From positions 314 through 64,313 of the forward strand of contig JBHLLF010000017.1 in assembly GCA_048885865.1 (NCBI GenBank): DNA of 64,000 bases. Reading direction: 5' to 3'. The DNA is from Candidatus Hermodarchaeota archaeon. GTDB taxonomy: Archaea > Asgardarchaeota > Thorarchaeia > Thorarchaeales > Thorarchaeaceae. Below are positions 18,850 to 42,580 of this stretch, one piece after another; positions within the stretch are counted from its first letter, which is position 1; each line of letters begins with the position of its first letter. Made by a program: the position numbers and the translations under genes. The notes below the pieces were generated by a model. It was given only the letters and a program-made list of their open reading frames with translations, was not told the origin of the DNA and did no database searches.

Positions 18850-21654
18850 ATGGCCGACCTAACGCTACTGACTTTAGTTTTCGAGTTTATGTCTCCTCTT
18901 GTTGTGACTGTTGTCTATTTGATTCTCTTCAATAAGAGGCGGAGCAAGTTTATCGAAGCGTTCATCGGGCTCATGTACGCCCTGACTATTACATTCAATA
19001 TCTTCTACATCTGGTTCATTCCAGCAACGAATCCTCCAACATTTACTGAGATTGGCGGAACTGGTCTGATGTGGGCATTCTTTCTTGACCTAGTATTCCA
19101 GTTCGTGTACACTCTGCAGCAATATCTGATCTGGGTAATGGTTGCTTTCTTTGCTGTGCTTTTCGGGATGGTAGTTCTTGCTCTGAAACTGACATTGCAG
19201 GATCCATTGAAAATGAGATTCAGCAACCTCATTCGAAGAATAGTTGGCAGTGAGCCTGAGACCGACGGATACACAGGTCTTAGAGACCGATTAAACCATA
19301 TCACATTCGAAGGCGTCGAGCCTCAGCCCCTTGATCCTGAAGTTTTAGGAAGAGCATGGCGTGAAGCTTGGAAAGACTATCTCATCATTGGACTTGCTAC
19401 ACTCCTACCCTCCATCGGAGCTTATGTAGGAGATGTTGTGTCATATACGGCATTCATCAACACTGGCAACCCTGCGTATCTCATCAATCCCTACATTACA
19501 GGTGTATTCATCTTCCTAACTTGGATCTACAGATTTGGATACCCCGCGTCAAACAGGATTGCAAAGGGAGCAGGTATGTATCTAGGCGAGAGGGACCTTG
19601 GACAAGAGATGATGCGAGGTGTTCTGGGATGGTTCTTCAGACTGAACATTCTACTTTCCATATTCCTCATAGCAACTAGCGTCTTCAACGCGTTCAATGC
19701 CCCGTTACTAATTGGAAGTGGACCTGGGCAGCTCAATCTGAGTCAGGCCGTCATAACTGATTCAGTCATCCGATACTTCCGAGATGGATTGATCTATGCA
19801 TTGCCTCCTATTCTGATAGCTATCATCATTCTTCCACTCGTGGAAGACTTTGCCGTGGTGTTGTACAAGAAGGCATTCGAAAAGCTCGCTAGGAAAAAGG
19901 CAGATGCGGTTGATGACACTCCAAAGAGCAGAGCATCCAGCATAGGAAGCGGAATTGGCATAGGTACGCTAGTAACCGGCGCCTTCTTGGGAGGAGTAAT
20001 GGGCGCCACACTGCATTTCTCATTCAATAATCCCTTGAATCCTGGTCAATTTAGATTCATACCAGGTCAAGTCGATACCTTTGTCGAAACCCTACTCATC
20101 GCTCCATTTACGAATGACCAGCTCATTCTCCCGGTATCATGGACTCTACTAATGCTAGCTATACCTTTTGCTGCCATGCTGTTGCTTGGTATTCTAGGAC
20201 ATATAGTTCGATCAAGAGCTATTGGCAGCACAGAGCTCTATGCATTTGTTGCTGGAGTCCTTGTTTCAGTCGCAACATATTTCCTGCTTCCCAATATGGA
20301 CTATCTGCTCAATGTTCTTCCCACACCTGCAGTGATTGATGGAGAGCTATTCTATAGACTTAGACCAATCATTGGTCCAACAACTGGAAATCTGCTATTC
20401 AGACTGGCTCTGCAGTATATTGTCAATCTACCAACCTATGTCTTCACTGCTCTATTCATCATGTACTACATGGAGTATCGTGAGAAATGGCGTGAACAGA
20501 CTGGAGAAGAATCAAAATCAATACTGAATCTGGAATCTCGAGATGTCTATCAATCTATTGGCATGTTTGTTGCGGGACTAGTCATAGCAATAGTCGCCGT
20601 ATTTGCGCTAGCAATGATGATTGACCCTGGTCTGCTCACCAATACATTAGTAGGCCTCTTTTCAGAAATAGGTGATCCAAATGGACTCGAAGGAGTATTG
20701 GCATGGATTGCTGAAGTGGACTATCACACTCCGTTCATTATTATCGCTGAGCACAACATAATTCGTACTCTGATTATGCTTGTATTTGGGCCCATGTTCT
20801 GGGCAGCAGTACTGTGGTTGGTTGGTGTCAAGAAGACAGCAGAGGAATCGAGCGTAGCAAGGATTGGGCTTGCGGTGACTGTAGTGGGTGTCGTTGCGAC
20901 ATTCCTATGGACCTACTTCGATATGACGAGAGGTGTATTCACGCCAGCACCTACATTGAATTGGATGATTCCTCTACATATTCAGGATCCATGGAGCCTA
21001 GCCGCTCAGATGGGTCTCCGTGCCATTCTCGTTTTTGGAGCTCTAGCTCTGGTCTACGCAATTATCATTGGAGCTCGAGTAAGTGGCGGCAAAGGTGCTG
21101 GTGCATGGTGGTTCCCTCTGTTCCTGTCCATCTTCGCATTGGAGTACTTCATATATGATGACCAATTCACCCTAATTGCTGTAATAGTAATACCGATGTT
21201 TCTGGCGATTCTGTATAAGGGAGCATATATGGGTCGTGAAGAAGTTCGGCGTGAAGATATACTGCTGACCTATATCAAGTTCAGCTTCATGTCAATCGCC
21301 ATTGCAGAGGTCTTGTCTACAGCTCTAATTATTGGAGGCATTAGCATTATCGATATGACCTTCACAGGATCTGCGCTGCCATTCCTCTCTAGTATAATAC
21401 CACACGCCGTGATCGAGATACCTACATTTCTGATTGCCGCGGCAATTTCGCTCAGGATAGCAAAGAACCTCTCTCCCAGCGTGGAACAAGAGAACTGGGA
21501 AGAGCTTCCCACCAAGACCAGGGCGCTATTGACTGACGAGAGGACTTGGAGGATATACCTGCTAATCGTATTCTTCCTTTTGGTTTCTGCGCTCATTGAG
21601 GCGTTTGTCACTCCACTAATTGTGGAATGGGTCCTAACTTTCGTCATGGCCTAG
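18850..21654 (+). CDS. Large polytopic membrane protein (about 20 TM) with SpoIIM/DUF95-like C-terminal module
   Basis: 934-aa ORF that is almost entirely hydrophobic helices. The C-terminal motif IIPHAVIEIPTFLIAAAISLRIAK resembles the conserved H-x-x-x-E-[IL]-P helix of the stage II sporulation protein M family. Confidence 0.8.
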   Translation: MADLTLLTLVFEFMSPLVVTVVYLILFNKRRSKFIEAFIGLMYALTITFNIFYIWFIPATNPPTFTEIGGTGLMWAFFLDLVFQFVYTLQQYLIWVMVAFFAVLFGMVVLALKLTLQDPLKMRFSNLIRRIVGSEPETDGYTGLRDRLNHITFEGVEPQPLDPEVLGRAWREAWKDYLIIGLATLLPSIGAYVGDVVSYTAFINTGNPAYLINPYITGVFIFLTWIYRFGYPASNRIAKGAGMYLGERDLGQEMMRGVLGWFFRLNILLSIFLIATSVFNAFNAPLLIGSGPGQLNLSQAVITDSVIRYFRDGLIYALPPILIAIIILPLVEDFAVVLYKKAFEKLARKKADAVDDTPKSRASSIGSGIGIGTLVTGAFLGGVMGATLHFSFNNPLNPGQFRFIPGQVDTFVETLLIAPFTNDQLILPVSWTLLMLAIPFAAMLLLGILGHIVRSRAIGSTELYAFVAGVLVSVATYFLLPNMDYLLNVLPTPAVIDGELFYRLRPIIGPTTGNLLFRLALQYIVNLPTYVFTALFIMYYMEYREKWREQTGEESKSILNLESRDVYQSIGMFVAGLVIAIVAVFALAMMIDPGLLTNTLVGLFSEIGDPNGLEGVLAWIAEVDYHTPFIIIAEHNIIRTLIMLVFGPMFWAAVLWLVGVKKTAEESSVARIGLAVTVVGVVATFLWTYFDMTRGVFTPAPTLNWMIPLHIQDPWSLAAQMGLRAILVFGALALVYAIIIGARVSGGKGAGAWWFPLFLSIFALEYFIYDDQFTLIAVIVIPMFLAILYKGAYMGREEVRREDILLTYIKFSFMSIAIAEVLSTALIIGGISIIDMTFTGSALPFLSSIIPHAVIEIPTFLIAAAISLRIAKNLSPSVEQENWEELPTKTRALLTDERTWRIYLLIVFFLLVSALIEAFVTPLIVEWVLTFVMA

Positions 21655-21671
21655 TGACATTTAGCTTGATG

Positions 21672-21711
21672 GCCTGCCTCTGGCAGGCTCTCTCCACTTT
21701 TTTCGATTTTT
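21672..21711 (+). terminator. Hairpin plus T-tract after the 934-aa gene
   Basis: GCCTGCC-tct-GGCAGGC stem-loop at 21672-21688, then tctctccacttttttcgattttt. Confidence 0.45.
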
Positions 21712-21926: not shown

Positions 21927-24900
21927 ATGATTAAACCGAGCAGTAAGATGATAACACTGTTCGCCCTTGCCCTTTTCACATTATCTCTTATGACAGCCCC
22001 AGCATCAGTGCCACCCTCTTCGGCACCAGAGAATTGGGTAGTCAATACGCAGACTCCTTTGAGGTCTGGAGTCCTTTCTGATTACCCCGACAACTATACT
22101 CGAGTGGAATGGGATCAGGGTACATGGAATGAACAGTGGGTTGATTCATGGAACCAAAGTCATTATCAGTTTGGTCCAACGGTCACATATCAAACTCGAA
22201 ATGCCACGAATAGCGCTCTTATCAGATGGAACGAAACAATTGACCTGGATGGTTGGGTCAATCTTATTATGAAAGTCCCGAAGACGGCCCTTTCCTATGA
22301 GATTCCTTTTGCAGTGCTCTTCCAGGCATCATACTACAATATGTCAGAGCTTGGCCCTGAGGGAAGAATGACTGAAGCAGGTTCTACTCCTATCACCGCT
22401 ATGGGCATGTATTTCGTGAATGAGTCTAGATGGGATTTCTATTCTTCAATGAATATGACTTTTCCAGAAGAGCCTCCATCTGACCTACCTGCAGGAACAA
22501 CGATAGAAGACGTTTTTGGGCCGCCAATAGATCCATTCATGGAGCTCGATGTAGCTGGCTGCTCAGCAGCGGCTGGAGTCGATTATTACTGGGCGACTTT
22601 CAAATTTAGGTTCAATCAATCTGCTCAGACAGGATTCTATCATATTATGGCCATGGCTATGGATTCAAGTCTTCAACCGATTGCTCAAAGCATAACGGAC
22701 GAATTTGGCGGACGGATTTTTGGTGCAACCTTTGATGATCTGGTCCATCAGGCTGTAGGAGGCTATTACTCTTGGAGTAGATTGGGCGACGATGGTAATA
22801 TACTGCTATCTGCTACAAGAGGAGAAGACTTCAATCAGACGGCAACCATCACGAATGGTACACTGCTAGCCAACGTGACATTCTATATTGACGTGCCTAG
22901 TCAAGTACTAACCACACAGTGGGTCTATGGTCCTTATACTGAAGTTCAGCAATCGACTGGAGGTTGGGAGTACGATACAATAAGTGAGACCTACATATGG
23001 AACGCCACAGTTCCAGTTACTCGAACGCTGCACTTTGATGGACTTCATCCGGAAACCTACTATACGGGTATCGACCTATCAATTGAGTATCAATTTTGGG
23101 ACGGATTTCAGTTCCATAATGACTGGGCATGGCCCAGACAAGCGGTTACATACCATTTCCATAATGACTCCTTTACAGTCAATCTGGCCTATGATTTCCG
23201 TACTTACGAATACATGGATGATCCGAAAGGTGGCTATTGGTATGAAACTTGGAGGACTCAGTACCTCCCATGGCCTGGCGCTGATGTACCTCTGACCTAC
23301 ATTTTGAATGCAAGCACTAGTGGTCACTCTTTGGCTGGCCAGAGGCATGTTGTCAACTTTAGAGGTCATATCAGTGAAGATGTACTACCTACAGGTGGAG
23401 AATTCGGCATGGGGCCTCTTCATATTAGGGATAGAGTAACCAACTTCGAAGGCAGGGATCTTGCGCAAGCAGCAGATCTCCCAATATCTTCTGAGGAAGA
23501 GAAGGCGGCATCTGAGATGCTACGCCAGCTTGGTGTTGAGTCTCCTACTGCAGTTGTGCGTCTAGTCCAGAAGGGACAGCCCTATCATCCAAGCTGGATG
23601 TTCCAGAGCGATGTGGGTGAAACTTTCACCGTACAGTCCCTCCTTCAAGGTGGTGCGGAGCTTGCAGCAGACATCGATGGTGTCGGATTGTTCTTACGTG
23701 CTTGGGATGAGAAATGGGGCTGGGACATGGGGGAGGACTGGCAACAGCATTCAGAGATTGAAGTGCAAATCCGAATAGATGACACCGGCGTTGTTGATGT
23801 GAAGGTCTTCAACTACACACGTAGGACATCTTGGGGTACGGGTCTACATTATGAATGGATGTACGTAGAGGTGATTCCAGGTGTTTGGGAATGGCGAGAA
23901 GTCGAGATTATAGGTGATTATTGGCAGGAATTGATTTGGGATCACAAGCTTGGTGATTGGACTAACGAGTGGTTCCCATTCCATGATAGTCGGTCAATCA
24001 TGAGTGTAGACTATTTCGATGTTGGTAATCTGACATATGGCCTAGTCGGAAATGATCTGCGAATAGTCTTCGATGTCACACCTAGGTCTGGGATACCTGG
24101 CCTTGAATGGAATTGGGACTTCTTCTATGGCAATCTGACTTGGGTTACAGACTACGAATCAGGAGAAGACTTCCATCTTGTAACAGGTTGGATTGAGGAT
24201 ACTGTCTATTCATACAAGAATGGAACAGACACGCTCCATCTATCAACTCCATATCACGATGTAGTCTTCAGGAATAATGTTACAGACGAACTCTACGTCC
24301 AAGAGAGCTTCCCCTTCATCGTCATTGATGGCACTGAGTATGAAGTGGAAAAGTACTATGTCGACACGGGCGGCGGCCTAGAAGAACGAGTCGTCTTTGA
24401 GAGATGGGACCACGAGGGTTGGGATGAAAACACTCAGTCCTACTCAGGCAATTGGAAACACTGGTATCAGTTAACAAACGGCACCGAAATTGATATCCAT
24501 CTCGGAACGAGTGCCATGATTTTCAACATCACCCTTGATGATGGAAGATGGTTCTTGGCTCCAGAAGACTTTCCACGTTACAATCCTTTCCTCAATGAAG
24601 AGTTCTTCATAATGCTAAATGGAACTCAAATTGTCGTGAGGAATGAAACAGGCCAGATATACTTCTACACCCCTGCACCATTGAGTACCACTCCTGTGAA
24701 GTTTGATGACACCTATGTGATCTATGCCAACGGAAGGAAACCAGTTTACTTGGCTGTGGAGCCATTCTGGGAAGTAGATCATTATGTGCTATATCTGAAC
24801 TCAACCCATGAGCGATTAGATGTATGGTGGGATGACTTCATGGGCCGCTATTTCTACTGGAATACGACAGATTTCACCCAGTACTATTTCGATGGCATGC

Positions 24901-27900
24901 ACTGGTCTCGGGTGTTTGAGGGCAAGTGGATGGGTGAGGATTTCCTAATAGATGAACTGGGTTATGGAATCAGGTATAAAGCATTTACAGAATTACATGG
25001 CAATGTCTATCCTCTGCCAATGCCCGGAATGGATGTATGGGATATCTTTGATCTCAACTACATTACCCCCAAGAAACATTTCGTACACATCAATGGCGGT
25101 ACTTATGAGGCGTACCCCCTGCCGCAGGGCTATGATCCAGTTCTGTCCTATTGGTACAACCAATACCAGGCAGATGTTGAGGGAGTACTGTATAATCTCA
25201 CTGAGTACAGCTGGAATCCATTCACTCCATGGACGCCCATGTCTGAACTCGACAGACCGTTCACAGCAATCGCTAATGGTTCAATTGGTGTTCCCGAAAT
25301 CTTCCACAAAGATTGGACAGTAGCGCTGGGACACACGAATTCCGACACCAGACGGTTTACTGTTGACCAGTGGCTGGAACTCAAGTCTGGAAATTATCAA
25401 GATCCAATGTGGCCAGATAGGATTTTCTTTGATGATCTTGGATATCCCTATGTTGTGACCATGAATGATGAGATGATGAATTACACCCAACATGCTCGTG
25501 CATATTTCTTCAACATTACACTTCAAAATGGGACGAGCTTCCATAGCATTGATCCATGGTTCAATGTATACGAAACATGGAATGAAACATCTCAGTTTTG
25601 GGAAGTTCATTACTACTATTTCCTGGATCTGAATGGTAGTGAAATTCGGCTCTACGATTTACCCGAATTCAACTTCACTCAGGAGAACTCAACCATTGTT
25701 GATGATATTTACAACCCGACGTACTATTGGGTAGATGGACAACAGTACGAGATCTTCAGGGTGGAGTGGCAGCCATTCTTCACTCTAGATGCAGCTAATG
25801 GCACTTCGTGGGAAGTTGTGGACCTACAGAATGACTGGGAGCACAGATTCAATATTCCATCATTCAACTTCACATTGGATAGTGGTGTGACTTGGTATAA
25901 AGTGACAGGCAGTCGCGATATGATATACCAAGCATTTTGGACTCATGGTTGGTCTCAGAAGCTGGATTACAGGCCACTTCCAGTTACCATATTGCGCGAA
26001 CAATGGTCGATAGTCATTGGAACGCCACGCTATGGAATGTGGGATATAGATTCATGGACAGTTGATGAAACGACTGGGGCACTCGATCTTGACGGCAACC
26101 TTGATACGACCAACGACCAGTACTACGTAGGGAGCTCCTATCAGTCCTCACACAGCTACAATGTTACTCAAGAGTATCTTTGGGTCAACATAGTTTGGGA
26201 GCCGAATTCAACACTTTGGCAAGATGAATTCTATTTGAACTCGTACGCCGGAATGGTCACCACGAACTGGTCCTACACCTGGGCAGACAATTACTACTGG
26301 TATCATGCTGATACCGGCGACCAATTGACGAGTGTGGAGATGACAGAGATTCAGAATCAACTTCTCGATCCAATGGGTCACCCAGCCCCTGGATATTGGG
26401 GCATTAGCTGGATGGCGCAGAATTTCACGTCCGAATTGATGAAGGCACAAGCCCAGGCTGAGGGGTGGGAATGGTTTGACACTTCTCAGGAATGGTCATG
26501 GATTTGGTGGGAACTGCAAGAGGGCTACACTACTGATGTTAACAATGGAACTCACATAGTTCCAATGGATATCAGTCTCGCATACCAGTATGCTGGAATG
26601 ATGGCTTGGAATGATACCAGCAATGATTCATTCCTGGATATCAATGTGGCTAGTCTGGGCAGTGCAGAACTGACCCACTACTGGATGCCAGCAAGTGTAG
26701 ACTCTGTGACCTTCACCACACCAGGTGAAGCTTGGGGCAATACCAACTCCACTGACGTTGAGTATCGCCCAGTCAATGAAACAATCGATTTTGGAGTCGC
26801 ATTCTTCAATATCAGCGGAGAAGTATTCCCATTTGGTGATTGGTCCTACTGGGATTGGTACGATGGTCAATACTATGGTTCGGACTTTTCCTCATTTGAG
26901 GAACGACCATCTCTTGCTGAAGTAGACGAGTTCTCCATTGATGTACATTTCACTGGAAACGTGAATACTACAGGCGGTCCCAATTATGCAAGTGTCAAAT
27001 TTGACATGCTAATTGGCGACTGGTATCTTGATTCACCAGGAGGCCGTGAAAGCAACCTTGATGGGTACAGTCTTGCAGTTGCTTTCTATAGCGATTTGAC
27101 AATAGTGACTCCTGAAGGGACTGAGATTCCGCCTTGCTATACCAATGACCTGGGACAACCGCTTTTCAACAATCAGGCAAACGCATCAAGCAGCTATGGA
27201 ATGGGGACTACTCTTTCCAGAGTGGCTTTGATGAACATGGGCGGTTCAACCTATAGCTGGGCACGAAACGCTTCAATGGCTCCAACCGTTTCAGCGCAAA
27301 CAGTGCCATTGTCCACATTCAGCACAATGTATGTATCCGATGCTGGAGGGTCTGCTACGGCATTTGATGTCACCTCATCACAGTTCTACACTGTGATCAG
27401 TTTCAAGCACTGGGCTGGTTATCAAGTTGAGGTCGACCCGGTGTTTGTAAGCTATGTTTCGCGTGGTGCAGATGATGCAACGTCTCCTTCGATTGATTAC
27501 TGGAATGAAGCGTCGGTTGATGTGCTAGGGACAGAGAATCTACGATTGGAGATTCAGGCATCTGACGAAGGCGGTTCAGAAATTTCCAAGGTTGTTGTCA
27601 TGGACCTTGACAATGTCGTGAACTACACAGCAACTTGGGAGGAGCCTGCTGGAGCATATGTAGTTGAGGTGCCACGATCTCAAGATGGCAGATACAACTT
27701 CAATTACCGAATTGTGGTGGTGGATGGTGCTGGCAACCAAGTCACGATTGATGATACCTATATGTTCAGAGACAACATCGATCCTATCATCAATAGTGTG
27801 GATGCTGACAATTCCACTGATGTGTTTGGACTTGAGATTGCGGTTATATCAGCTGATGTTTCTGACCTTGGCGGGTCAAACATCGCGTCTGTGACACTGA

Positions 27901-28558: not shown

Positions 28559-28598
28559 CTGAGGGTGTACCCCTCAGAGTTCTCTTCTCTTTTTCTTC
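28559..28598 (+). terminator. Hairpin plus T-tract after giant gene 1
   Basis: CTGAGGG-tgtac-CCCTCAG stem-loop at 28559-28577, then agttctcttctctttttcttc. Confidence 0.5.
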
Positions 28599-28704
28599 AT
28601 CCAGTCATCTAGGAGAGATTCCCACGTAAATATGCATGGCTAGACCTTTACAATTCATTCATTGTCTCCATAAAAACCATGCAACAATATCTTATATTCA
28701 ACAA

Positions 28705-34681: not shown

Positions 34682-34686
34682 GACGG

Positions 34687-34720
34687 AGGGGGGAAACCCC
34701 CTCTACCCTTTCTTTTTCTC
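34687..34720. terminator. Hairpin plus T-tract at the junction of the two convergent giant-protein operons
   Basis: GAGGGGG-aaa-CCCCCTC stem-loop at 34687-34703, then taccctttctttttctc. Confidence 0.5.
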
Positions 34721-35291: not shown

Positions 35292-36173
35292 TTATTCATA
35301 ATGCATTGAGCCATCATCAAGTCTTCTAACAGTCAGCTCGAATTCATTCCTTATACCAAGCCTTTTGGCAAATCCGAGAATGTAGCTGCGTCTCCTTCCT
35401 TCCGTTGCACCTACAAGCATTATTGCAGGAATTACCCAAAGCGTCACGATAATTGGTAGGATGAACAGGAAGAGAACTGCGGACCAATGCACTTGGCTAC
35501 CATATGTCCCCAGAAAGTCGAAGGTGAATTGGTACAAGGCAATGACGACGCCTATGCCTGCATAGCCTTTCAGAAGTGCCAGATACCACTTGCCAACTGC
35601 CTGTAGTTCTGCCGCACCATATTTGCTCATTAGCACAATTCCAGATTCATCGATTATCCAGGCGGCGGAAAAGAGAGCAAACGCAGGAGCCTGCAATAAG
35701 GCACCTAGGACAAAGAACAGGAAGATGATACTGTTCCATTGTAGATAATAGTCCTGGAAAAATGGGATGCCCATTATTGTAGAATCGAATATCAGAGTCA
35801 GAGTGAAGTTCGTCGCCATCAATGCGGGGAAGAATCCCATACGCATACCATGCGACCTCTCCATTGCATGCTGTTCCTGTATAGCAAACAGGTTATTTCT
35901 TCCCATATACTTCTTGTAGACCCACAGGAGGAGAGGGGCTAATGCGAAGCCAATTAGGGTTCCAATAATAGCAGAAACGGGAAACAGTAGGACTACCCAC
36001 CCTGCAGCACTTGTTACACTGAACAACACCGTCAAGGGAATGATCGCGATAATGGACACTATTGCTGGTCTTGTGTATTTCATTTCAATCCCCCACTGAA
36101 TATCATCTAAGATGGATAATTGATGCAATCTTTCCCTGCACCTTATATTTATGCTGAAACTCAAATTGAGCAC
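35292..36173 (-). CDS. Polytopic membrane protein (about 6-7 TM), uncharacterised
   Basis: Hydrophobic helices run throughout the ORF. GTG at 36173; the more likely start is ATG at 36083 (MKYTRPAIVSIIAIIPL...). No Cys, His or Ser catalytic motifs recognised. Confidence 0.7.
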   Translation of the reverse strand: MLNLSFSINIRCRERLHQLSILDDIQWGIEMKYTRPAIVSIIAIIPLTVLFSVTSAAGWVVLLFPVSAIIGTLIGFALAPLLLWVYKKYMGRNNLFAIQEQHAMERSHGMRMGFFPALMATNFTLTLIFDSTIMGIPFFQDYYLQWNSIIFLFFVLGALLQAPAFALFSAAWIIDESGIVLMSKYGAAELQAVGKWYLALLKGYAGIGVVIALYQFTFDFLGTYGSQVHWSAVLFLFILPIIVTLWVIPAIMLVGATEGRRRSYILGFAKRLGIRNEFELTVRRLDDGSMHYE

Positions 36174-36334
36174 AGAAGCCTATATTCCACATTTCTGAAG
36201 TTCAGCCCCTTTTTCTGCGGTTTGGAGAGTTGACAACGGTGTACCTGCAATTATCGCGTCACAGCTTTTGATGAAGAACACTTGCTATCTTCAACCATTT
36301 CTTATCATTGCGATAGATTGGCAGATTTTCCATT

Positions 36335-39300
36335 TCATTCCGTAAGGCTGCTGAAGTCTGCTTCAAATTCAGGCATCGACTTGCGTCTTCTAATCCAAAC
36401 TGCTACGACAGCTATTCCTATGAAACCACCCAGAACAACTAAAATCAAAAGCAGGTTTGGTGGAGTTATCACTATTGCATTCAATTTCCCTCCAATGCCA
36501 TAGAGTGAGAGATGAGTAACTCGAGCCCAGACACATCCTGCATATGCCTCGCCATAGACTTCGATGTCCGTGGTGTTGACACCCATGTCCAACACCCACT
36601 CTAAATCTCTTGACAGCTTTGTCCATGTATCAGCGACATCATCGTACCAATACATTGTCAGAGTAGTTTCATTGAAGTCCATAAAGCCATCAAAGCTTCC
36701 ATCTCCATCCCGATCAATATCAGAGAACCGATAATAGACCAAGATGAGAGCTTCATGCACAGGGATACTCGCCACTCCGTTAGAGGTGACTGAAACCTCT
36801 AGAAATCTTGACATAGCCTCATCCCCTTCTTCAAGGCCATTTTGATGGGTCAGCATATGTGGCGTATTTGTGGTGTTATATCGAGTCACTTGAATAAGTG
36901 GTAGTTCTGAACTCATCAACACCACTCCAATTACTGAGTCTGTTGCTTTTACCATGTCTATACAATCCAATGCAAAGGAGTATTCAACATTTAGCGCATG
37001 ACTCACTGGTATTATTTGATACTCCGCTATGAACGAATTGGCCAATATCGTCACATTTCTACATCTGAGAATCTGCAGCACATTATAGACATCCGCTGAA
37101 TACGCACTAGAGAGGATGACAACTGTCTGAGGACTATTCCAGACACAGTGGCGAATGGCAATCTCATGTGAACCAGGTTGCATCATGTCTGCAAGTACAC
37201 TACCAGTATCCTCCAAGATTTCATAGGTGAGTCCAGCAACAGTTTCACTCCCAGGATCTGGTCGCCCGACAAGGACTATGTACTGATAGTGTGTGTAGCT
37301 TGCCATCAATTCCTCCAATGAAACTACTATGACCTCGGTGTAATTTCCAAGACCCTGTGCGAAATCACGAGTGTAATTATATTCATCCCAATCACATGCT
37401 AGAATCACAGGCCCAGCAAACTCAGCAAATGTGTCGGGATCCTGCATGTCCGGGACGCCATCGAAGTCAGAATCGGAATTCCAGGGGTTGCTGCCCCACT
37501 CAAGCTCTTCTAGATCAAGGATGCCATCACCATCTGTATCATTATTTAATGGATCCAGCATGACTGACACCTCATACCCATCAGGCGCTCCGTCGTCATC
37601 TGAATCATTGTTTAGAGGGTCTGTACCGTAGAGGTACTCATCGCCATCTCTTAGCCCGTCTCCATCCGCATCTGGATTTGTGGGATCTGTGCCGAGTATA
37701 TTCTCAGCACCATCAAAACTGAAGTCACCGTCAGAGTCCGGTTGAAGCAGGTTCGTTCCATGAAGGTACTCCCAGAAATCAGTGAGTCCATCCTCGTCTG
37801 TATCTATGCTTCTCGGATTTGAGCCATATTGAAACTCAAGAAGGTCTGATAATCCTTCGCTGTCTGAGTCTGGTTCGAGGGGGTTACTTCCGAAGGTGAC
37901 CTCGGTGCCGTCTCCCAACGCTTCTCCGTCGGTGTCCCAGCATGTGATGTTTGTTCCCAGAATGCTCTCATCAAGGTCTGATAATCCATCGAGGTCTGTA
38001 TCCGGAATTAGCGGATTCGAACCAAGGATGAACTCGTCGTAATCAGAAAGTCCATCGAAATCTGTATCATTGAGTCGCGGGTCACTCGTCACATTGAATG
38101 TGCATGCATAAGTTGCGTTGAATTCGACATTGAGCTCCCATCCATCATCCTCATCAATATTCGACAGTCCATCTGCATCCCAGTCAGGATTTGTATTTGG
38201 TATGACATCACTAGCGTTTACTTGCGTCTGTGAGAACTTCGTAAAATTGCCCTCGCCCCCACCATTCCAGGCCGCTACTATAATATTCAGGTTGGAATCA
38301 ATATCCATTGACAACCCTGGTGTGTGGGATTCGTCCCAGGTGAAATTCTCGGAGTCAGTTCCTCGAATTATGAAGTTCGTGTCTTCAAATCCGTTTGGGT
38401 CAAACTTCCTGATACATCTACCTTCATTGTCGACAACATAGACTTGCTGATTCGAATCAACAACCACTCCCTGTGGATTAATGAAGCCATCTGGTAGAGC
38501 GGTCATAATCGAACCGTCACTCATATCTATCTTCGCTACTCGATTTGGCTGACCAAACTCTTCGCGATTATCAGCGACGTAGACATATTCATTCACATCA
38601 TCAACGGCTATAGCCTGAATTGTACCAAATTGATCAGGGCTGGGACCATTGCCTCCCCACGGTCCTGCTAGCACATCTCCCGTGGGACTTCGCTTCTCAA
38701 CTGTGGAGTCTGCATAAGAACTATCAAAGGCTAGATAAATATCTCCTGAAGAATCGACGTCTAATGAATTGACAAACTCATTTTCTTCAAACATGAGCGT
38801 CGGATCGAAAGAGCTGGGATCAGTCCTGTGTACTCCTTCCTCATTCCAATAGTACAGCCACCCGTTGCTCTCATCAATGGCGAGCGTAGATGCATAATCA
38901 CCCCAATCTTCAATAAACGTGCCATCAGGCGAGAACTTGAGGATTCCATACCTAATGTCATCCCCCTTAACGATTCCTACCTCAGTGCCTGCATAGATGA
39001 ACCCATTCGAGTCTATCGCGACATCAGGGCAGTAATCTTCTCGTTCTAGGTGATAGGTCGTCTTCCATTCAAAGTGAGATTCTGTTACGAACCTAGGGCC
39101 AGCCTTGTCCTTCTTGCCATCGCCATCAGTATCCTGTGACTTGGGATTGAGATTGCTCAGATATTCCTCACAATCATCGACGCCATCTCCATCAGAATCC
39201 TGAACCACTGGATTTGAAAACACTCTGGTTGAGAAGAGGATTTGGTTTGGGTCAGTGGATATATTATATTTGAAAGTCATTACCCAGCCGGCAACCTCCA

Positions 39301-42300
39301 TGTAATCATCCAAGCCATCTCCGTCGCTGTCCTTGTTCGTTGCATTTGTCCCATAGACAAGTTCGTAATAGTCTATGAGGCGGTCTTCATCCGTGTCGAA
39401 CGATGTTGGATCTGTTCCGATATCACGTTCGTACTTGTCGCTGAGCTCATCCGAGTCGGTGTCATATTTCCAAATGTTTGTCGCCCACAAATTGGCCTCC
39501 TCAGTGTTGTTGAGACCGTCACCGTCGTGATCGTTAGAAGTAATGCCTCTCCAGTTGGCAAAGTCATTGATATTCTCAGGAAGCACATCGAAATACAGCC
39601 TGGTGTAGACAAAGGAGTGTGTAGTTCTTGTTGCATCTTCATGCGTGCATTTGAATATGCCAAGCCACCGATGATACCAGATGTTCCATATCTGGAAGTA
39701 GGAGTTTATTCTGATAGCCACCGGGAAGTTAGGCATTCCTATTCCTGGCTCAATCCAAGCACTAGTATTATAGAACTCAGCTCTCCAACCAGCTCCGTAT
39801 TGAGTATCTAATGGACTCCTAATCGGATAGCCAAAAATATTCGGGATGTAAGGTGCACCTGTTTCACTCGTATTAGAGAATGAACCAGGTGGTGCATCAA
39901 TGCTTATCCAAGGCACGTTCCAGCTTCTTGACACCCAATAATCTGCACCTCTACCTTTTGCGGTCAAGTTGCCTACGAGCTGACAAAGCAGTTCGATTCT
40001 GTCCCCGACATCCAGTCCATTATTATCAACATCGTAGGTGTTTATTGTTGGATAACCAGAGATATCACTCACTGGTACCACATTGCAGATTTGATTTGGA
40101 CTTCCAAAGATAGCTTTTGTGAGCCATTCTATGATAGTGCTCTTAGCATCAAAAAGGAAGTCAAATATTGCCAAGAATATTTCGAAAACCCATCCGACAA
40201 CAGGTATTGTTCCTATAGCGGCGCTAAGAAGTGCCCAAATGATGGTTATAACCGTTGCAACTACCCCATAGGCAATAGCCAACTCAGTACCCAGGGTTCC
40301 TCCAATTGCCATGCCAATCTCAATCGCCATCCATATGGATAGACCGATGTCCACAAGAAAACAAATGACATCAAGAGAATTACCGATTGCTCTGGCGAAT
40401 TTGATTGTTCCTGTGCCGACTTTATTGATGGCTCGACATGACTTGAACCAAGAACGTGTACTTTTTCCAGCAGCTACAGCACCTTTACTAAAGCCCTTCG
40501 CAGGCAATGTTTTCAGAGATCTAAATGCCTTCATGGTGGTTTGTGTAATATCACCAAGGTAACCAAGTCCGTCGATTCCCCAGGAAATGACATTACCTAC
40601 AGTATCTATGATAGCAGCTTCAGGAAAGTCGAAGCTCACTGGCGAGTCGCCCACTTGTGTAATAATTGTCTGTCCAGCGTGCCAATTCAGCATCATGGCT
40701 AGTAGATTGTAAACAGAAAGCTCGTCTTGACCCCAATTCAGAATCTCAGTCATTATTTCCTCCAAGACTAGATAGCGGAAGCTGGAGGTGTTGTAGAGAT
40801 TGGTCTTCAGTGTCTTTGCAATGGTGATTTCTTCCGCAACCATATCGAATGTGCATGAACTGCCCATGACATAAGTCCCAGACAAGGCCTCGGAGAGTTC
40901 CAAGATCTTGCTATGATCTTCATTGGCGATTATGATTGGTACATTCTCGCTCTCTGGAAAGAATGGAGCTAATCCTTGAAGCGCTGCTGGCAACATATCA
41001 TTGCTCATCGATACAAATGCCTCATCACGATTCGAGAATGATGCAATTAAGTTGTAGACATCAATACCGTGATTGGCCAAAACTCCAGGCATGTCTGCGA
41101 GGGTAGTGGTGGAGTTCCTCATGAAATCGTATGCAAGCAACAGATTTGCCGCAATTGTCTGATTTCTGTTTTCACTATAGAATAATCCCAAATCAGAACC
41201 ATGGCACTCTTCTACAGCCAGGCCAGAGAGCATGAATGGCTCCTCATAAGTGACAAGGTTTATTGGTTCAGAATAATAGCCGACGTCATCAACTTCAAAT
41301 CCCACAAACTCAGAAGAATTAGCGATTAGTATGCCATCATATCTGGGGGAAACATAAAGCCCATTGTGCCCGACAAATCCTGTCTTGCCCGATTCACTCT
41401 TGACTGAAAGAAATGATTCCTGCTCGCCAATCTCAGAGGCATTAAACACAAGAATTCCGCTATCAGATACTGTGAGGTATGGGCCATTTGGAATCTTGAA
41501 AGCAACTATGTCATTGCCAAGATCCAGTATTTGAAGCCCGCCACTCATCGGCTTGGTTGCATTAGCTACTGCTACTCCTTCAGATCCGATGGATACATAC
41601 GTGCCATTAGGAGTAGTTAATGCGCTTACACCCACATCACTGTATCCTATTACTTTCCATATCAGTTCAACCTGAAGTGATAGGTTCACTGGATCTGATT
41701 CAGGGTAGAACATCCTACCAACGAACCCAACTATATTACCATACTCCAACACTGGTGCAAGAGGTAGATGCACATAACCTGCCATAGCAGTTATTCCGTG
41801 CTCGTTTAGAATCTCCTGATCAGGAATCACATTAGTTGTAACATTTAGTTTCGGCACTATACTAACGTCTCTCTTTGAATTGTCAAGATCCTTCATTCTA
41901 CCCTCGGCATCGTACGGCCAATCCCAAGTCTGATAGAACAGCTTTAGATTTTCAGGATTCTGAGGAACGATTTGAAATGTCACATAGGTTGGCTTGCCAT
42001 CCGTCAGAATATCAATATCGAACCGGGGTTGGATTAATGACTTGGCAAAGGGAGATAGGTCAGGTTCATCATTCACGCCATCGCCATCATTATCAAAATC
42101 CCATTGATTCGCAAGACCATCGCCATCAAGGTCAGAACTAACTCCTTCAGGCAACTCAAAGAAATCAGGGAGACCGTCATCATTTGTGTCTGGATTTGTT
42201 GGATCCAAATTGTTGAATACCTCGAATGTGTCATTTAGTCTATCGAAGTCTGAATCTGTGTTGTTGTAGTCAGTTCCAATTATGTTTTCAATGGCATCAT

Positions 42301-42580
42301 ACAAACCGTCATTATCAGTGTCATTGGCGTCGCCTGGAGTCACAGCTTCTAAGGCAAGCACCAATTCTTTCAACGAGAAGGGTGCTCTGGGAGGACTGAC
42401 TGATTCAAGAAATGATTCCACAAAAGGAACCATATCCAATAACTCATCTTCTGACTCATCTTTCAAAAATGCAGGCTGATCGACAGCTCGCTGAACATCA
42501 ACTGCAATCAGCATAACTATCAATGATACAGAAAATGCGGCACATGCTACTCTTCTCAAGGCGCTCCTCCTCTTAACCAC
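36335..42580 (-). CDS. Giant mosaic surface protein (2081 aa): TSP3-like Ca-binding repeats, beta-trefoil-like triplet, internal TM bundle, NHL-like beta-propeller, C-terminal TM anchor
   Basis: Uninterrupted 6.2-kb ORF with N-terminal anchor AAFSVSLIVMLIAV. Many D-x-D-x-DG-x-x-D-x-x-E repeats (e.g. GSNPLEPDSDSEGLSDLLE). NHL-like strands IAVDDVNEYVYVADN and PQGVVVDSNQQVYVVDNEGRCIRKFDPNG. Tail is LLLILVVLGGFIGIAVVAVWIRRRK. Confidence 0.9.
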   Translation of the reverse strand: MVKRRSALRRVACAAFSVSLIVMLIAVDVQRAVDQPAFLKDESEDELLDMVPFVESFLESVSPPRAPFSLKELVLALEAVTPGDANDTDNDGLYDAIENIIGTDYNNTDSDFDRLNDTFEVFNNLDPTNPDTNDDGLPDFFELPEGVSSDLDGDGLANQWDFDNDGDGVNDEPDLSPFAKSLIQPRFDIDILTDGKPTYVTFQIVPQNPENLKLFYQTWDWPYDAEGRMKDLDNSKRDVSIVPKLNVTTNVIPDQEILNEHGITAMAGYVHLPLAPVLEYGNIVGFVGRMFYPESDPVNLSLQVELIWKVIGYSDVGVSALTTPNGTYVSIGSEGVAVANATKPMSGGLQILDLGNDIVAFKIPNGPYLTVSDSGILVFNASEIGEQESFLSVKSESGKTGFVGHNGLYVSPRYDGILIANSSEFVGFEVDDVGYYSEPINLVTYEEPFMLSGLAVEECHGSDLGLFYSENRNQTIAANLLLAYDFMRNSTTTLADMPGVLANHGIDVYNLIASFSNRDEAFVSMSNDMLPAALQGLAPFFPESENVPIIIANEDHSKILELSEALSGTYVMGSSCTFDMVAEEITIAKTLKTNLYNTSSFRYLVLEEIMTEILNWGQDELSVYNLLAMMLNWHAGQTIITQVGDSPVSFDFPEAAIIDTVGNVISWGIDGLGYLGDITQTTMKAFRSLKTLPAKGFSKGAVAAGKSTRSWFKSCRAINKVGTGTIKFARAIGNSLDVICFLVDIGLSIWMAIEIGMAIGGTLGTELAIAYGVVATVITIIWALLSAAIGTIPVVGWVFEIFLAIFDFLFDAKSTIIEWLTKAIFGSPNQICNVVPVSDISGYPTINTYDVDNNGLDVGDRIELLCQLVGNLTAKGRGADYWVSRSWNVPWISIDAPPGSFSNTSETGAPYIPNIFGYPIRSPLDTQYGAGWRAEFYNTSAWIEPGIGMPNFPVAIRINSYFQIWNIWYHRWLGIFKCTHEDATRTTHSFVYTRLYFDVLPENINDFANWRGITSNDHDGDGLNNTEEANLWATNIWKYDTDSDELSDKYERDIGTDPTSFDTDEDRLIDYYELVYGTNATNKDSDGDGLDDYMEVAGWVMTFKYNISTDPNQILFSTRVFSNPVVQDSDGDGVDDCEEYLSNLNPKSQDTDGDGKKDKAGPRFVTESHFEWKTTYHLEREDYCPDVAIDSNGFIYAGTEVGIVKGDDIRYGILKFSPDGTFIEDWGDYASTLAIDESNGWLYYWNEEGVHRTDPSSFDPTLMFEENEFVNSLDVDSSGDIYLAFDSSYADSTVEKRSPTGDVLAGPWGGNGPSPDQFGTIQAIAVDDVNEYVYVADNREEFGQPNRVAKIDMSDGSIMTALPDGFINPQGVVVDSNQQVYVVDNEGRCIRKFDPNGFEDTNFIIRGTDSENFTWDESHTPGLSMDIDSNLNIIVAAWNGGGEGNFTKFSQTQVNASDVIPNTNPDWDADGLSNIDEDDGWELNVEFNATYACTFNVTSDPRLNDTDFDGLSDYDEFILGSNPLIPDTDLDGLSDLDESILGTNITCWDTDGEALGDGTEVTFGSNPLEPDSDSEGLSDLLEFQYGSNPRSIDTDEDGLTDFWEYLHGTNLLQPDSDGDFSFDGAENILGTDPTNPDADGDGLRDGDEYLYGTDPLNNDSDDDGAPDGYEVSVMLDPLNNDTDGDGILDLEELEWGSNPWNSDSDFDGVPDMQDPDTFAEFAGPVILACDWDEYNYTRDFAQGLGNYTEVIVVSLEELMASYTHYQYIVLVGRPDPGSETVAGLTYEILEDTGSVLADMMQPGSHEIAIRHCVWNSPQTVVILSSAYSADVYNVLQILRCRNVTILANSFIAEYQIIPVSHALNVEYSFALDCIDMVKATDSVIGVVLMSSELPLIQVTRYNTTNTPHMLTHQNGLEEGDEAMSRFLEVSVTSNGVASIPVHEALILVYYRFSDIDRDGDGSFDGFMDFNETTLTMYWYDDVADTWTKLSRDLEWVLDMGVNTTDIEVYGEAYAGCVWARVTHLSLYGIGGKLNAIVITPPNLLLILVVLGGFIGIAVVAVWIRRRKSMPEFEADFSSLTE
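37425..38195 (-). repeat. Array of thrombospondin-type-3-like calcium-binding repeats (protein level)
   Basis: At least 10 consecutive units of the form G[ST]NP(L).PD[ST]D.DGL.D..E (e.g. LGSNPLIPDTDLDGLSDLDE, YGSNPRSIDTDEDGLTDFWE, YGTDPLNNDSDDDGAPDGYE). Shorter arrays lie near 42030-42330 and 39090-39560. Confidence 0.75.

What the first reader, a model, noticed from the sequence alone, without database searches (positions are those of the whole stretch)
18850..42580. Convergent two-operon, ~24-kb locus: three giant anchored surface proteins with dedicated membrane partners and no known machinery
Seen in sequence. On the plus strand a 934-aa ~20-TM protein (18850-21654) is followed by 2205-aa (21927-28544) and 1958-aa (28805-34681) ORFs. 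On the minus strand a 2081-aa ORF (42580-36335) is followed by a polytopic membrane protein (36173-35292) and a 148-aa soluble protein (35197-34751). The two arms meet at a single hairpin/T-tract (34687-34720). All three giants have an N-terminal signal or anchor and a C-terminal TM helix plus Arg cluster. Nothing in the locus resembles an ATPase, protease, glycosyltransferase, pilin, archaellin or known secretion component. The locus occupies about 37% of the window. Inference: this is a self-contained cell-envelope, adhesion or cell-cell-contact module built from Ca-binding, glycan-decorated giant proteins. I cannot assign the two W/Y-rich giants to any family I know, so it is the best candidate in the window for an undescribed system.
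Basis: partly seen in the sequence, partly recalled or inferred. Interest (0 to 1): 0.85.

Follow-up and report, generated by a model that had tools for sequence, protein, structure and literature searches.

The report
Variable giant surface-protein island in Thorarchaeota
The 24-kb stretch is not one six-gene machine: it is a gain-and-loss hotspot in a Thorarchaeota (Asgard archaeon) chromosome that holds three independently acquired genes for giant sugar-coated surface proteins, two of them from a previously undescribed family.

Summary
The [quoted passage not shown] reading does not hold up.

The window comes from a Thorarchaeota genome. In 51 informative related loci, two genes form a conserved backbone: the 934-aa membrane protein, which ends in a SpoIIM/PF01944 domain, and the 148-aa protein, which is CesT/YbjN-like. 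The slot between them is variable. It holds a G1-type giant, a G2-type giant, both in tandem as here, or nothing (11 of 51).

G1 is a 7-kb indel relative to the closest relative. The third giant plus the 293-aa membrane gene form a block that is 89% identical in DNA to a genome whose backbone is only 65-72% identical, which points to lateral exchange. Elsewhere, homologs of the 293-aa gene occur without any giant. Each of the three plus-strand genes is followed by its own hairpin and T-tract.

G1 and G2 are ancient paralogs of an Asgard-restricted, unannotated family. The family has a conserved ~480-aa all-beta core with no detectable fold relative, Ig-like domains, a Thr/Pro stalk and a C-terminal anchor. 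The most likely role is variable, N-glycosylated surface coat or adhesin proteins. Interest is moderate.

The parts
18850..21654 (+). TM934. A Thorarchaeota-specific polytopic membrane protein (~18 TM) with a C-terminal SpoIIM/PF01944 domain at residues 821-922. It is a conserved backbone gene, not specific to the giants.
   Evidence: Pfam hit. Hydropathy. 163 full-length homologs at 46-88% identity, nearly all labelled Thorarchaeota or Promethearchaeota. Present in 72 GTDB loci with or without giants. No PDB relative and no internal repeats.
21672..21703 (+). Hairpin GCCTGCC-TCT-GGCAGGC followed by a T6 run, 18 nt after the TM934 stop codon. Terminator-like.
   Evidence: Read directly from the sequence. 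A similar hairpin follows the TM934 homolog in L010. The consensus scan did not list it, and its function is inferred.
21633..28681 (.). A 7-kb segment carrying G1. It is absent from the closest relatives: L010 (90-93% nt identity on both sides), L013 and L043.
   Evidence: blastn breakpoints at 21632-21731 and 28682 in three comparisons.
21927..28544 (+). G1, a 2,205-aa giant. It has a signal peptide, a variable W/Y-rich N-glycan-rich head, a conserved core, three to four Ig-like domains, a Thr/Pro stalk, a TM helix and RRRR.
26034..27491 (+). Conserved core domain of G1 (residues 1370-1855). It is all-beta with strands up to 27 residues long, and it defines the family.
   Evidence: AlphaFold2 model with pLDDT 81 and pTM 0.75. 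No convincing fold neighbour in PDB or BFVD. It is the most conserved stretch of the protein. The core profile finds 155 cluster representatives.
27489..28376 (+). Tandem Ig/FN3-like domains of G1 (residues ~1855-2150). They include the CBM_56-like Pfam hit at 2071-2130.
   Evidence: Model. The Foldseek top hits, by inference from this Ig-like part (the output gives no query ranges), are SiiE BIg domains and FnIII tandems at E 5e-11 but low TM-scores. Pfam hit.
28559..28594 (+). Hairpin plus T5 tract just after the G1 stop codon. Terminator-like.
28683..28730 (+). AT-rich, TATA-like region 75-120 bp upstream of G2. It is conserved with L010, where it directly follows TM934. Probably G2's own promoter.
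   Evidence: inference.
28805..34681 (+). G2, a 1,958-aa giant and ancient paralog of G1. The core domain is encoded at 32735-34243, followed by a region corresponding to one of G1's Ig-like domains (read from the G1/G2 alignment, not modelled), a TM helix and an Arg cluster.
34685..34718 (.). Hairpin and T-rich tract between the convergent G2 and 148-aa genes.
34751..35197 (-). S148, a small cytoplasmic CesT/YbjN-like protein (probable start at 35146). It is a backbone gene, convergent with TM934 or the giants in all relatives.
   Evidence: 59-95% identity in relatives. Pfam CesT_Tir_1/CesT/YbjN hits in 6 of 6 orthologs.
35308..42654 (.). Laterally exchanged block containing TM293 and G3. It is 89.4% identical in DNA to L007, whose backbone is only 65-72% identical.
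   Evidence: Truncated remnants lie at the same site in L047, at 84% against 68% for the backbone.
35292..36173 (-). TM293, a polytopic membrane protein (probable start at 36083, giving 263 aa). No family assigned.
   Evidence: Homologs occur without any giant, next to an ADH homolog in 5 of 11 loci.
36335..42580 (-). G3, a 2,081-aa giant unrelated to G1/G2. It carries TSP3 calcium-binding repeats, an FRG1/fascin-like domain, an internal TM cluster, an NHL beta-propeller and a C-terminal anchor.
40151..40390 (-). Internal cluster of three to four TM helices in G3 (residues ~731-810). Conserved in G3 homologs.
38339..38782 (-). NHL-repeat beta-propeller of G3 (residues ~1267-1414).
   Evidence: PDB sequence hits to the TRIM2/TRIM3 NHL domains at E 2e-8. 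Pfam NHL hit.

Best explanation
The region is a hypervariable surface-protein island in a Thorarchaeota chromosome, not one system.

Backbone (shown). Two vertically inherited genes frame the island: a ~900-aa membrane protein ending in a SpoIIM domain, and a convergent CesT/YbjN-like small protein. The simplest relatives read ferritin(-), TM934(+), S148(-), ADH(-).

Insertions in this genome (shown). About 13 kb lies between TM934 and S148: G1 and G2, ancient tandem paralogs that relatives keep singly, together or not at all. About 9 kb lies on the other side of S148: TM293, G3 and a Na+/H+ antiporter gene. The TM293-G3 block was exchanged laterally between distant Thorarchaeota.

How each giant most likely works (inferred).
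- It is transcribed on its own.
- It is exported through Sec by its N-terminal signal.
- It is N-glycosylated at its many NxS/T sequons.
- It is held in the membrane by its C-terminal helix, with the Arg cluster on the cytoplasmic side.

In G1 and G2 the predicted order outward from the membrane is a Thr/Pro stalk, Ig-like domains, the conserved novel-fold beta core, and then a large fast-evolving W/Y-rich head. Together such proteins would form the non-crystalline glycoprotein coat or adhesins of the cell. The gain, loss and exchange pattern fits diversifying pressure from viruses or partners.
For: Taxon and family.
- The homologs of G1 and TM934 that carry a source name are Thorarchaeota/Promethearchaeota hypothetical proteins, apart from single 'Odinarchaeota' and 'Sifarchaeia' labels.

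Slot variability in 51 informative GTDB loci.
- G2-type only: 12.
- G1-type only: 6.
- G1+G2 tandem: 5-6.
- Giant first, then the contig ends: about 15.
- No giant, with TM934 directly followed by S148: 11.

Variation among close relatives.
- L010, L013 and L043 lack exactly window 21633-28681 (G1).
- L011 and L012 lack both G1 and G2.

Lateral exchange.
- Window 35308-42654 is 89.4% identical in DNA to L007, against 65-72% for the flanks. At protein level the figures are 89% against 49-73%.
- L047 carries truncated remnants of the block at the same site.

Partners are not dedicated.
- TM293 homologs lack any nearby giant in 11 of 11 metagenome loci and adjoin an ADH homolog in 5 of them.
- L034 and L068 show the bare TM934/S148/ADH backbone.
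- Third-type giants with the same core domain stand alone at unrelated loci.

Separate transcription units.
- Hairpins with T-tracts follow TM934, G1 and G2.

Surface-protein features.
- Signal peptides, sequon excess and C-terminal anchors.
- Ig-like domains.
- The core is more conserved than the head.

Biological context.
- Cultured Asgard cells show unordered surface proteins rather than an S-layer (PMC9834061, PMC11284389).
Against: - About 75% of Thorarchaeota species keep a giant of this family directly downstream of TM934, always in the order G1 then G2. Both families appear restricted to the same lineage. This could reflect functional coupling rather than mere synteny.
- S148 belongs to a secretion-chaperone-like superfamily.
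- No expression, proteomic or localisation data exist, so the surface-coat function rests on sequence features only.
- The lateral-transfer inference rests on MAG contigs (L007, L047). A chimeric assembly would mimic it, although finding the block at the same site in four genomes argues against that.
- Transcription-unit boundaries are inferred from hairpins and T-tracts only.
Confidence: 0.65

Rival explanations
1. TM934 (SpoIIM-like membrane protein) and S148 (CesT-like chaperone) would be a Thorarchaeota-specific export, sorting or anchoring apparatus. The slot between them would hold its cargo genes, the G1/G2 giants.
For: - A giant of the family lies immediately downstream of TM934 in about 38 of 51 loci, always in the same orientation and order.
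- The TM934 and G1/G2 families are both confined to Thorarchaeota/Promethearchaeota.
- S148 orthologs hit the CesT/YbjN chaperone-like families in 6 of 6 cases.
- G1 and G2 have a conserved tripartite C-terminal tail (Gly/Pro, acidic residue, TM helix, terminal RRRK) that resembles sortase-type sorting signals. Such signals are usually cleaved by polytopic membrane enzymes (PMC11980579, title and abstract as listed).
Against: - 11 of 51 species keep TM934 and S148 adjacent with no giant.
- Giants with the same core domain occur alone at unrelated loci.
- The whole neighbourhood (aaRS, RACo, M28 peptidase, ferritin) is equally syntenic, so adjacency by itself is weak evidence.
- TM934 is followed by its own terminator-like hairpin and T-tract.
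- The window's TM934 has no cysteine and matches no protease or sortase family.
Confidence: 0.18
2. G1 and G2 are the true S-layer lattice proteins of Thorarchaeota, analogous to the haloarchaeal S-layer glycoprotein.
For: - They share the overall architecture of the haloarchaeal S-layer glycoprotein (recalled from background knowledge of that protein, not tested here): signal peptide, dense N-glycosylation sequons (one per 41 residues in G1, close to the one per 30-40 quoted for thermoacidophile S-layer proteins in PMC11284389), a Thr-rich stalk and a C-terminal anchor.
- They are widespread in the lineage.
Against: - The gene is absent from this locus in 22% of species and varies between close relatives, which is unexpected for an essential lattice protein.
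- Two or three deeply divergent types coexist.
- The PGF-CTERM and other sorting models score only below their cut-offs.
- Cultured Asgard archaea lack an ordered S-layer.
- Lattice formation cannot be tested here.
Confidence: 0.12
3. The G3 block, or the whole island, is cargo of an Asgard mobile element of the 'aloposon' type, which carries tandem giant genes.
For: - The G3 block shows clear lateral exchange.
- Tandem G3-like giants occur in another Thorarchaeota MAG, L008.
- Wu et al. 2022 report tandem giant genes in Thorarchaeota that are distantly related to aloposon giants (PMC8813620).
Against: - There is no tRNA gene anywhere in the window.
- None of the six island proteins or the ten flanking ORFs scanned matches a ParA/MinD ATPase, integrase or transposase.
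- G3 is a single 2,081-aa gene, not a 3,000-6,000-aa pair.
- The block lies at the same chromosomal site in four genomes, which fits homologous recombination better than transposition.
- TM293 has no relative in the viral contig collection.
Confidence: 0.05

Closest known systems
Haloarchaeal S-layer glycoprotein with a PGF-CTERM anchor processed by archaeosortase ArtA
   Same: Sec signal peptide, many N-glycosylation sequons, a Thr-rich stalk just before a C-terminal TM helix, and a terminal basic cluster.
   Different: - There is no sequence or profile similarity.
- The PGF-CTERM model scores 10 bits against a cut-off of 24.5.
- No archaeosortase is found among the 16 window proteins scanned.
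- The gene varies by presence and absence.
- The proteins are about 2.5 times larger.
- Lattice formation is unknown.
Giant Ig-repeat adhesins such as Salmonella SiiE (BIg domains)
   Same: The tandem Ig-like domains of G1 are presumably what gives the best Foldseek hits, to SiiE at E 5e-11 (no query ranges are given). Both are giant surface proteins, and calcium-binding motifs are present (TSP3 repeats in G3, one DxDxDG-like loop in G1/G2).
   Different: - G1 has only 3-4 Ig-like domains, not dozens.
- TM-scores are low (0.13-0.32).
- The bulk of G1/G2 is non-repetitive and has an unmatched core fold.
- There is no type I secretion system.
- The anchor is a C-terminal TM helix.
SpoIIM family (PF01944, COG1300, arCOG01994)
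   Same: The C-terminal ~100 residues of TM934 match the SpoIIM model above its cut-off. The family is known in archaea as uncharacterised membrane proteins proposed to act in membrane remodelling (PMC5898192).
   Different: - TM934 is about five times longer than the 163-position Pfam model. It has ~800 extra residues of polytopic membrane region with no family, no repeats and no PDB relative.
- The DMP partners SpoIID and SpoIIP do not exist in archaea.
- The arCOG02177/AliA partner reported for some archaeal SpoIIM genes is not seen among the neighbours examined.
Myxococcus CglD / MtsD and other bacterial TSP3-repeat surface proteins
   Same: G3 shares runs of thrombospondin type-3 calcium-binding repeats with them.
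   Different: The scores are far below the family cut-offs (75.6 against 400, and 71 against 800). G3 also adds an FRG1/fascin-like domain, an NHL propeller and an internal TM cluster.
Asgard C-terminal sorting-domain surface proteins (NCBIfam Loki-CTERM, Heimdall-CTERM)
   Same: Asgard surface proteins that end in a TM helix plus a basic cluster. The G3 tail gives its best named hit to Loki-CTERM.
   Different: All hits are below their cut-offs (15.6 against 19.9 for G3, 8.8-11.9 against 24 for the two G2-type orthologs that hit Heimdall-CTERM). The tail shared by G1 and G2 (Gly/Pro, acidic residue, TM helix, RRRK-COOH) would be a separate, unmodelled variant.
Aloposons of Heimdallarchaeum (PMC8813620)
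   Same: Giant genes in Asgard archaea that move laterally. Tandem giants are reported in Thorarchaeota.
   Different: No tRNA integration site, no ParA-like gene set, and smaller genes.

Membership tests
SpoIIM (PF01944 / arCOG01994), for TM934 | Match to the family HMM above the curated cut-off | tested here: met
   54.1 bits against a cut-off of 26.9, E 2.3e-14. Only model positions 74-163 of 163 are matched, at residues 821-922.
SpoIIM (PF01944 / arCOG01994), for TM934 | Association with the SpoIID/SpoIIP autolysins (the DMP engulfment complex) | tested here: not met
   No such Pfam hits among the locus or neighbour proteins. The literature reports no archaeal homologs.
Archaeosortase-dependent S-layer glycoprotein (PGF-CTERM type), for G1/G2 | PGF-CTERM or another curated CTERM sorting-domain HMM above its cut-off | tested here: not met
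   C-terminal peptides of G1, G2 and six orthologs were scanned. PGF_CTERM scored 10.4 against 24.5, GG_III-CTERM up to 16 against 22, and PVV-CTERM up to 18.8 against 27. One ortholog marginally passed the generic LPXTG_anchor model, 16.1 against 15.9.
Archaeosortase-dependent S-layer glycoprotein (PGF-CTERM type), for G1/G2 | Signal peptide, dense N-glycosylation sequons, and a Thr-rich stalk before the anchor | tested here: met
   Sequence inspection and sequon counts.
Archaeosortase-dependent S-layer glycoprotein (PGF-CTERM type), for G1/G2 | Forms a two-dimensional lattice and is among the most abundant cell proteins | not testable with these tools
   Needs cryo-ET and proteomics of Thorarchaeota cells.
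CesT / YbjN secretion-chaperone-like superfamily, for S148 | Match to the CesT, CesT_Tir_1 or YbjN HMM above its cut-off | tested here: inconclusive
   The window protein scores 19.3 against 27. All 6 orthologs give near-full-length hits at E 6e-5 to 2e-3, and one passes the CesT cut-off at 23.7 against 22.
CesT / YbjN secretion-chaperone-like superfamily, for S148 | Encoded next to a type III secretion effector or apparatus | tested here: not met
   No type III secretion component appears among the neighbours scanned.
CglD / MtsD TSP3-repeat surface proteins, for G3 | Equivalog HMM above its cut-off | tested here: not met
   75.6 against 400, and 71.4 against 800. Only the TSP3 repeats are shared.
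Aloposon mobile element, for the G3 block or the island | Tandem 3,000-6,000-aa genes, integration at a tRNA gene, and an upstream four-gene set with a MinD/ParA ATPase | tested here: not met
   No tRNA in the 64 kb. None of the ten flanking ORFs scanned is ParA-like. G3 is a single 2,081-aa gene.
   Only L010, at 90% nt identity, has five of the six. 11 of 51 loci have only TM934 and S148. TM293 occurs without G3 in 11 of 11 metagenome loci.

The most novel reading that the evidence does not exclude
TM934 (a SpoIIM-type, ~18-TM protein) and the CesT-like S148 could together form a previously unknown Thorarchaeota-specific machine. It would chaperone, sort or membrane-anchor giant glycoproteins that carry the conserved Gly/Pro, acidic, TM, RRRK C-terminal tail. 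The genome would keep a 'cargo slot' between the two machine genes. This would give the widespread SpoIIM/DUF95 family its first function outside sporulation, and would define a new sorting-signal and sorting-enzyme pair in the archaea closest to eukaryotes.
Probability: 0.15. Interest if true: 0.7.

Novelty: new variant of a known kind. Interest (0 to 1): 0.4.

Why it matters
Nothing is known about the cell surface of Thorarchaeota. In the cultured Asgard archaea examined so far, the envelope is an unordered set of surface proteins, thought to mediate the cell-cell contacts relevant to eukaryogenesis (PMC9834061).

G1 and G2 define a lineage-wide, unannotated family of ~2,000-aa glycoproteins. 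Its core domain has no detectable fold relative. The genes sit in a chromosomal hotspot that gains, loses and exchanges them. That makes them concrete candidates for the Thorarchaeota surface coat, for virus receptors and for strain-level surface variation. They are also targets for metaproteomics and for antibody or cryo-ET labelling.

The negative result matters too. The apparent six-gene 'system' is produced by insertions on both sides of a small conserved gene, so it should not be taken forward as a new machine.

Tried and rejected
- Sequence and profile searches of G1, the G1/G2 alignment, TM934 and its alignment, and S148 against all PDB chains found nothing.
- hhalign self-comparison of six TM934 segments found no internal duplication and no extra SpoIIM-like repeats.
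- blastp self-comparison of G1, G2 and G3 found no long internal repeats.
- Foldseek with the 876-residue C-terminal tile returned only tandem Ig/FnIII proteins, presumably matching its Ig-like domains, so the core could not be judged from it. I re-modelled the core alone. It has no real neighbour in PDB: the best hit is E 7e-4 with probability 0.2 and TM 0.11, and GLMP reaches probability 0.91 with TMq of only 0.26. BFVD gave nothing either.
- The resemblance to outer-membrane beta-barrels such as FadL, BtuB and OmpF reflects only the long beta-strands. I rejected it because the TM-scores are about 0.1.
- Pfam found no family in 10 remote core-domain relatives.
- Rfam found no RNA family in the window, and there are no tRNAs.
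- A viral-contig scan with TM293 found no relatives.
- I considered a twin-arginine (Tat) signal for G2, because of 'SRRALF' in this genome. I rejected it because G2 orthologs lack the RR motif.
- I considered TM934 divergence among close relatives (84% against 94-98% for its neighbours) as a sign of recombination. The differences are spread evenly along the protein, so it is simply fast-evolving.

Full report

All six ORFs are at the stated coordinates. Hydropathy analysis gives about 18 TM segments for the 934-aa protein (TM934). It gives an N-terminal hydrophobic segment plus a C-terminal helix followed by an Arg/Lys cluster in each giant.

NxS/T sequons are two to three times over expectation: G1 has 54 against 18, G2 35 against 13.5, and G3 33 against 17. 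The hairpin at 34685-34704 with its T-rich tail exists, although its folding energy is unremarkable.

- TM934 ends in a SpoIIM/PF01944 domain (E 2e-14).
- The 148-aa protein (S148) and its orthologs match the CesT/CesT_Tir_1/YbjN chaperone-like families.
- G3 has a conserved internal cluster of TM helices at residues ~731-810.
- TM934, G1 and G2 are each followed by their own hairpin and T5-T6 run. They are separated by 260-270 bp, and G2 has its own conserved AT-rich upstream region. 'Two operons' is therefore doubtful.

G1 and G2 are paralogs (26% identity over ~1,900 aa, E 8e-155). G3 is unrelated to them.

**2. Where does the window come from?**

Nearly all named homologs of G1 and TM934 are hypothetical or 'SpoIIM' proteins of Candidatus Thorarchaeota/Promethearchaeota MAGs; one G1 homolog is labelled Odinarchaeota and one TM934 homolog Sifarchaeia. 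The flanks are housekeeping genes: a class II aminoacyl-tRNA synthetase, RACo, a cytidylyltransferase, an M28 peptidase and ferritin on one side, and a Na+/H+ exchanger, an ADH and a methyltransferase on the other.

**3. Comparative genomics breaks the 'module' apart.**

*The first six relatives.*
- In six relatives looked up individually (TM934 45-50% identical), the upstream order is conserved (with a few genes missing in some loci): aaRS, Usp, RACo, cytidylyltransferase(-), M28(-), ferritin(-), TM934(+).
- In five of them one giant(+) and then S148(-) follow TM934. The giant is G1-type in some and G2-type in others.
- L007 has no giant at that position.
- Only L007 has TM293 or G3.

*The GTDB scan.* A scan of GTDB species representatives returned 72 Thorarchaeota loci. 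I classified the 51 informative ones:

| Content of the slot after TM934 | Loci |
|---|---|
| G2-type only, then S148 | 12 |
| G1-type only, then S148 | 6 |
| G1 then G2 in tandem, as in the window | 5-6 |
| Giant first, then the contig ends | ~15 |
| No giant; S148 begins 74-408 bp after TM934 | 11 |

*Close relatives also differ.* L010 is 90-93% identical in DNA on both sides but lacks exactly window 21633-28681, the G1 gene. L013 and L043 resume homology at the same right-hand breakpoint (28682), with the left edge at 21716 and 21731. L011 and L012 lack both G1 and G2.

*The TM293-G3 block.*
- On the other side of S148, window 35308-42654 (TM293 plus G3) is 89.4% identical in DNA to L007. 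The shared backbone with L007 is only 65-72% identical.
- At protein level the contrast is 85-89% against 49-73%.
- L047, a complete chromosome, carries truncated TM293 and G3 remnants at the same site. They are 84% identical in DNA, against 68% for the backbone.

*TM293 and the bare backbone.*
- TM293 homologs in 11 metagenome contigs have no giant nearby. In five of them TM293 adjoins a homolog of the window's ADH.
- L034 and L068 show the bare backbone TM934(+), S148(-), ADH(-).
- The window's 24 kb therefore results from insertions on both sides of S148.

*Giants elsewhere.* Third-type giants that share the G1/G2 core (P0027, P0028) sit alone among unrelated housekeeping genes.

**4. What are the proteins?**

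*G1 and G2.*
- The only Pfam hit is an Ig-like CBM_56 match in G1. There is no NCBIfam hit and no PDB relative by sequence or by profile.
- The family alignment shows the most conserved stretch at G1 residues ~1400-1800. The least conserved stretch is at 800-1300.
- AlphaFold2 on residues 1300-2175 (pLDDT 74) shows an all-beta core with strands up to 27 residues long, followed by three to four Ig/FN3-like domains.
- Foldseek with that tile returns only tandem BIg/FnIII proteins (SiiE first), which I attribute to its Ig-like domains; the output gives no query ranges.
- The core modelled alone (residues 1370-1855, pLDDT 81, pTM 0.75) has no convincing neighbour in PDB or BFVD. TM-scores are about 0.1, and the best-probability hit, GLMP, reaches TMq of only 0.26.
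- A profile of the core finds 155 cluster representatives among 1.84 billion proteins. They are ~1,800-2,500-aa giants, ~1,000-1,250-aa proteins and ~500-750-aa proteins. The ten checked by Pfam have no family, and those that carry a name are Thorarchaeota/Promethearchaeota.
- The C-terminus is conserved in form: a Thr/Pro-rich stalk, Gly/Pro, an acidic residue, a Gly-rich TM helix, and a terminal RRRK. It scores only below the cut-off against curated CTERM sorting models.

*G3.*
- It combines TSP3 calcium-binding repeats, an FRG1/fascin-like domain, an NHL propeller (TRIM2/3 NHL, E 2e-8) and the internal TM cluster.
- Its N-terminal 820 residues have only five homologs among 5.8 billion proteins. 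The three that carry a label are from Thorarchaeota or a Heimdall-group family, Kariarchaeaceae.
- One Thorarchaeota MAG has two G3-like giants in tandem.

*TM934.* It has no PDB relative and no internal repeats. It evolves faster than its neighbours, and the differences are spread evenly along the protein. SpoIIM-family proteins in archaea (arCOG01994) are uncharacterised and have been proposed to act in membrane remodelling (PMC5898192; PMC12462473).

**5. Most likely mechanism.**

What is shown:
- The backbone and island structure.
- The independent gain and loss of G1, G2 and the TM293-G3 block.
- The lateral exchange of the TM293-G3 block.
- The domain layout.

What is inferred: each giant is separately transcribed, exported through Sec, N-glycosylated, and retained by its C-terminal helix with the basic cluster inside the cell. 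The stalk and Ig-like domains would lie near the membrane, then the conserved core, with the variable head pointing outward. Such proteins would make up a non-crystalline glycoprotein coat or adhesins, like the 'surface densities' seen on Lokiarchaeum cells, which lack an ordered S-layer (PMC9834061; PMC11284389). The presence/absence and replacement pattern is what one expects of surface proteins under diversifying pressure.

**6. Rivals.**
- *TM934 and S148 as a dedicated apparatus with a cargo slot.* This stays possible. About 75% of loci show the adjacency, both families have the same lineage restriction, S148 has a chaperone-like fold, and the giants carry a sorting-signal-like tail. It is weakened by the 11 empty slots, the stand-alone giants elsewhere, the general synteny of the region, and the terminator-like element after TM934.
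- *A true S-layer protein.* This is unlikely given how dispensable the gene is at this locus.
- *An aloposon-type mobile element (PMC8813620).* This fails its defining features, because there is no tRNA gene, no ParA-like gene and no 3-6-kaa gene pair.
- *Assembly artefact.* This is unlikely. The window is collinear with L010 on both sides of G1, the G1-then-G2 tandem recurs in five or six distant genomes, and G1's 90%-identity cluster holds a second member sequence (its contig of origin was not determined).

**7. Verdict.**

The interpretation as one self-contained system is not supported. What is real and new is a Thorarchaeota-restricted family of giant surface glycoproteins with an unmatched core fold, encoded in a variable island. 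This is a new variant of a known kind (anchored giant archaeal surface proteins) and is of moderate interest.

Noticed in passing
window 40151-40390 (-), G3 residues ~731-810: G3 has an internal cluster of three to four TM helices, conserved in its 33-37%-identical homologs. The protein would cross the membrane in mid-chain, giving two large ectodomains. This is unusual for a giant surface protein.
   Followed up: partly
L006 / L036 13558-14472: In one Thorarchaeota MAG (JAWOEX010000028.1), the G2-type giant is interrupted near its 5' end by a DDE_Tnp_1 transposase gene.
   Followed up: no
window 18850-21654 compared with L010, L011, L012: TM934 is only 83-84% identical to close relatives, while its neighbours (aaRS, M28, ferritin) are 90-98% identical. 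The differences are spread evenly, so this membrane protein evolves unusually fast.
   Followed up: partly
L047 13415-15233 (CP070658.1, complete chromosome): Truncated C-terminal fragments of TM293 (108 aa) and G3 (436 aa, 83% identical) lie next to S148. This looks like a decaying copy of the exchanged block at the same site.
   Followed up: partly
L008 3359-13890 (JBHLQM010000052.1): Two G3-like giants (2,162 aa and at least 1,297 aa, 36-37% identical to G3) sit in tandem with no TM293 homolog. They may be the 'tandem giant genes in Thorarchaeota' mentioned by Wu et al. 2022.
   Followed up: no
window 42581-43406: An 826-bp stretch without a long ORF lies between the G3 start and the divergent Na+/H+ exchanger gene. 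It includes a very AT-rich part at ~43000-43130. Similarity to L007 extends at least to 42654, where the L007 locus ends, so the right edge of the exchanged block is undefined.
   Followed up: no
window 28805-28930, G2 N-terminus: This genome's G2 signal peptide contains 'RRRESRRALF', which resembles a twin-arginine motif. It is shared with L010 but absent from more distant G2 orthologs, so it is probably not a Tat signal.
   Followed up: partly
window 34751-35197 and 35292-36173: Orthologs indicate shorter real genes. S148 probably starts at M18 (35146, giving 131 aa), and TM293 probably starts at M31 (36083, giving 263 aa).
   Followed up: yes
P0203-P0225 and P0259-P0297: The core domain also occurs in shorter Promethearchaeota proteins of ~1,000-1,250 aa and ~500-750 aa. 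None has a Pfam family, so the domain family is broader than the giants.
   Followed up: partly
window 16041-18041 (-) and 18166-18693 (-): A 666-aa M28/DUF4910 peptidase gene lies upstream of TM934 on the opposite strand in every relative whose locus reaches that far, and a ferritin gene lies between them in most. No functional link to TM934 was examined.
   Followed up: no
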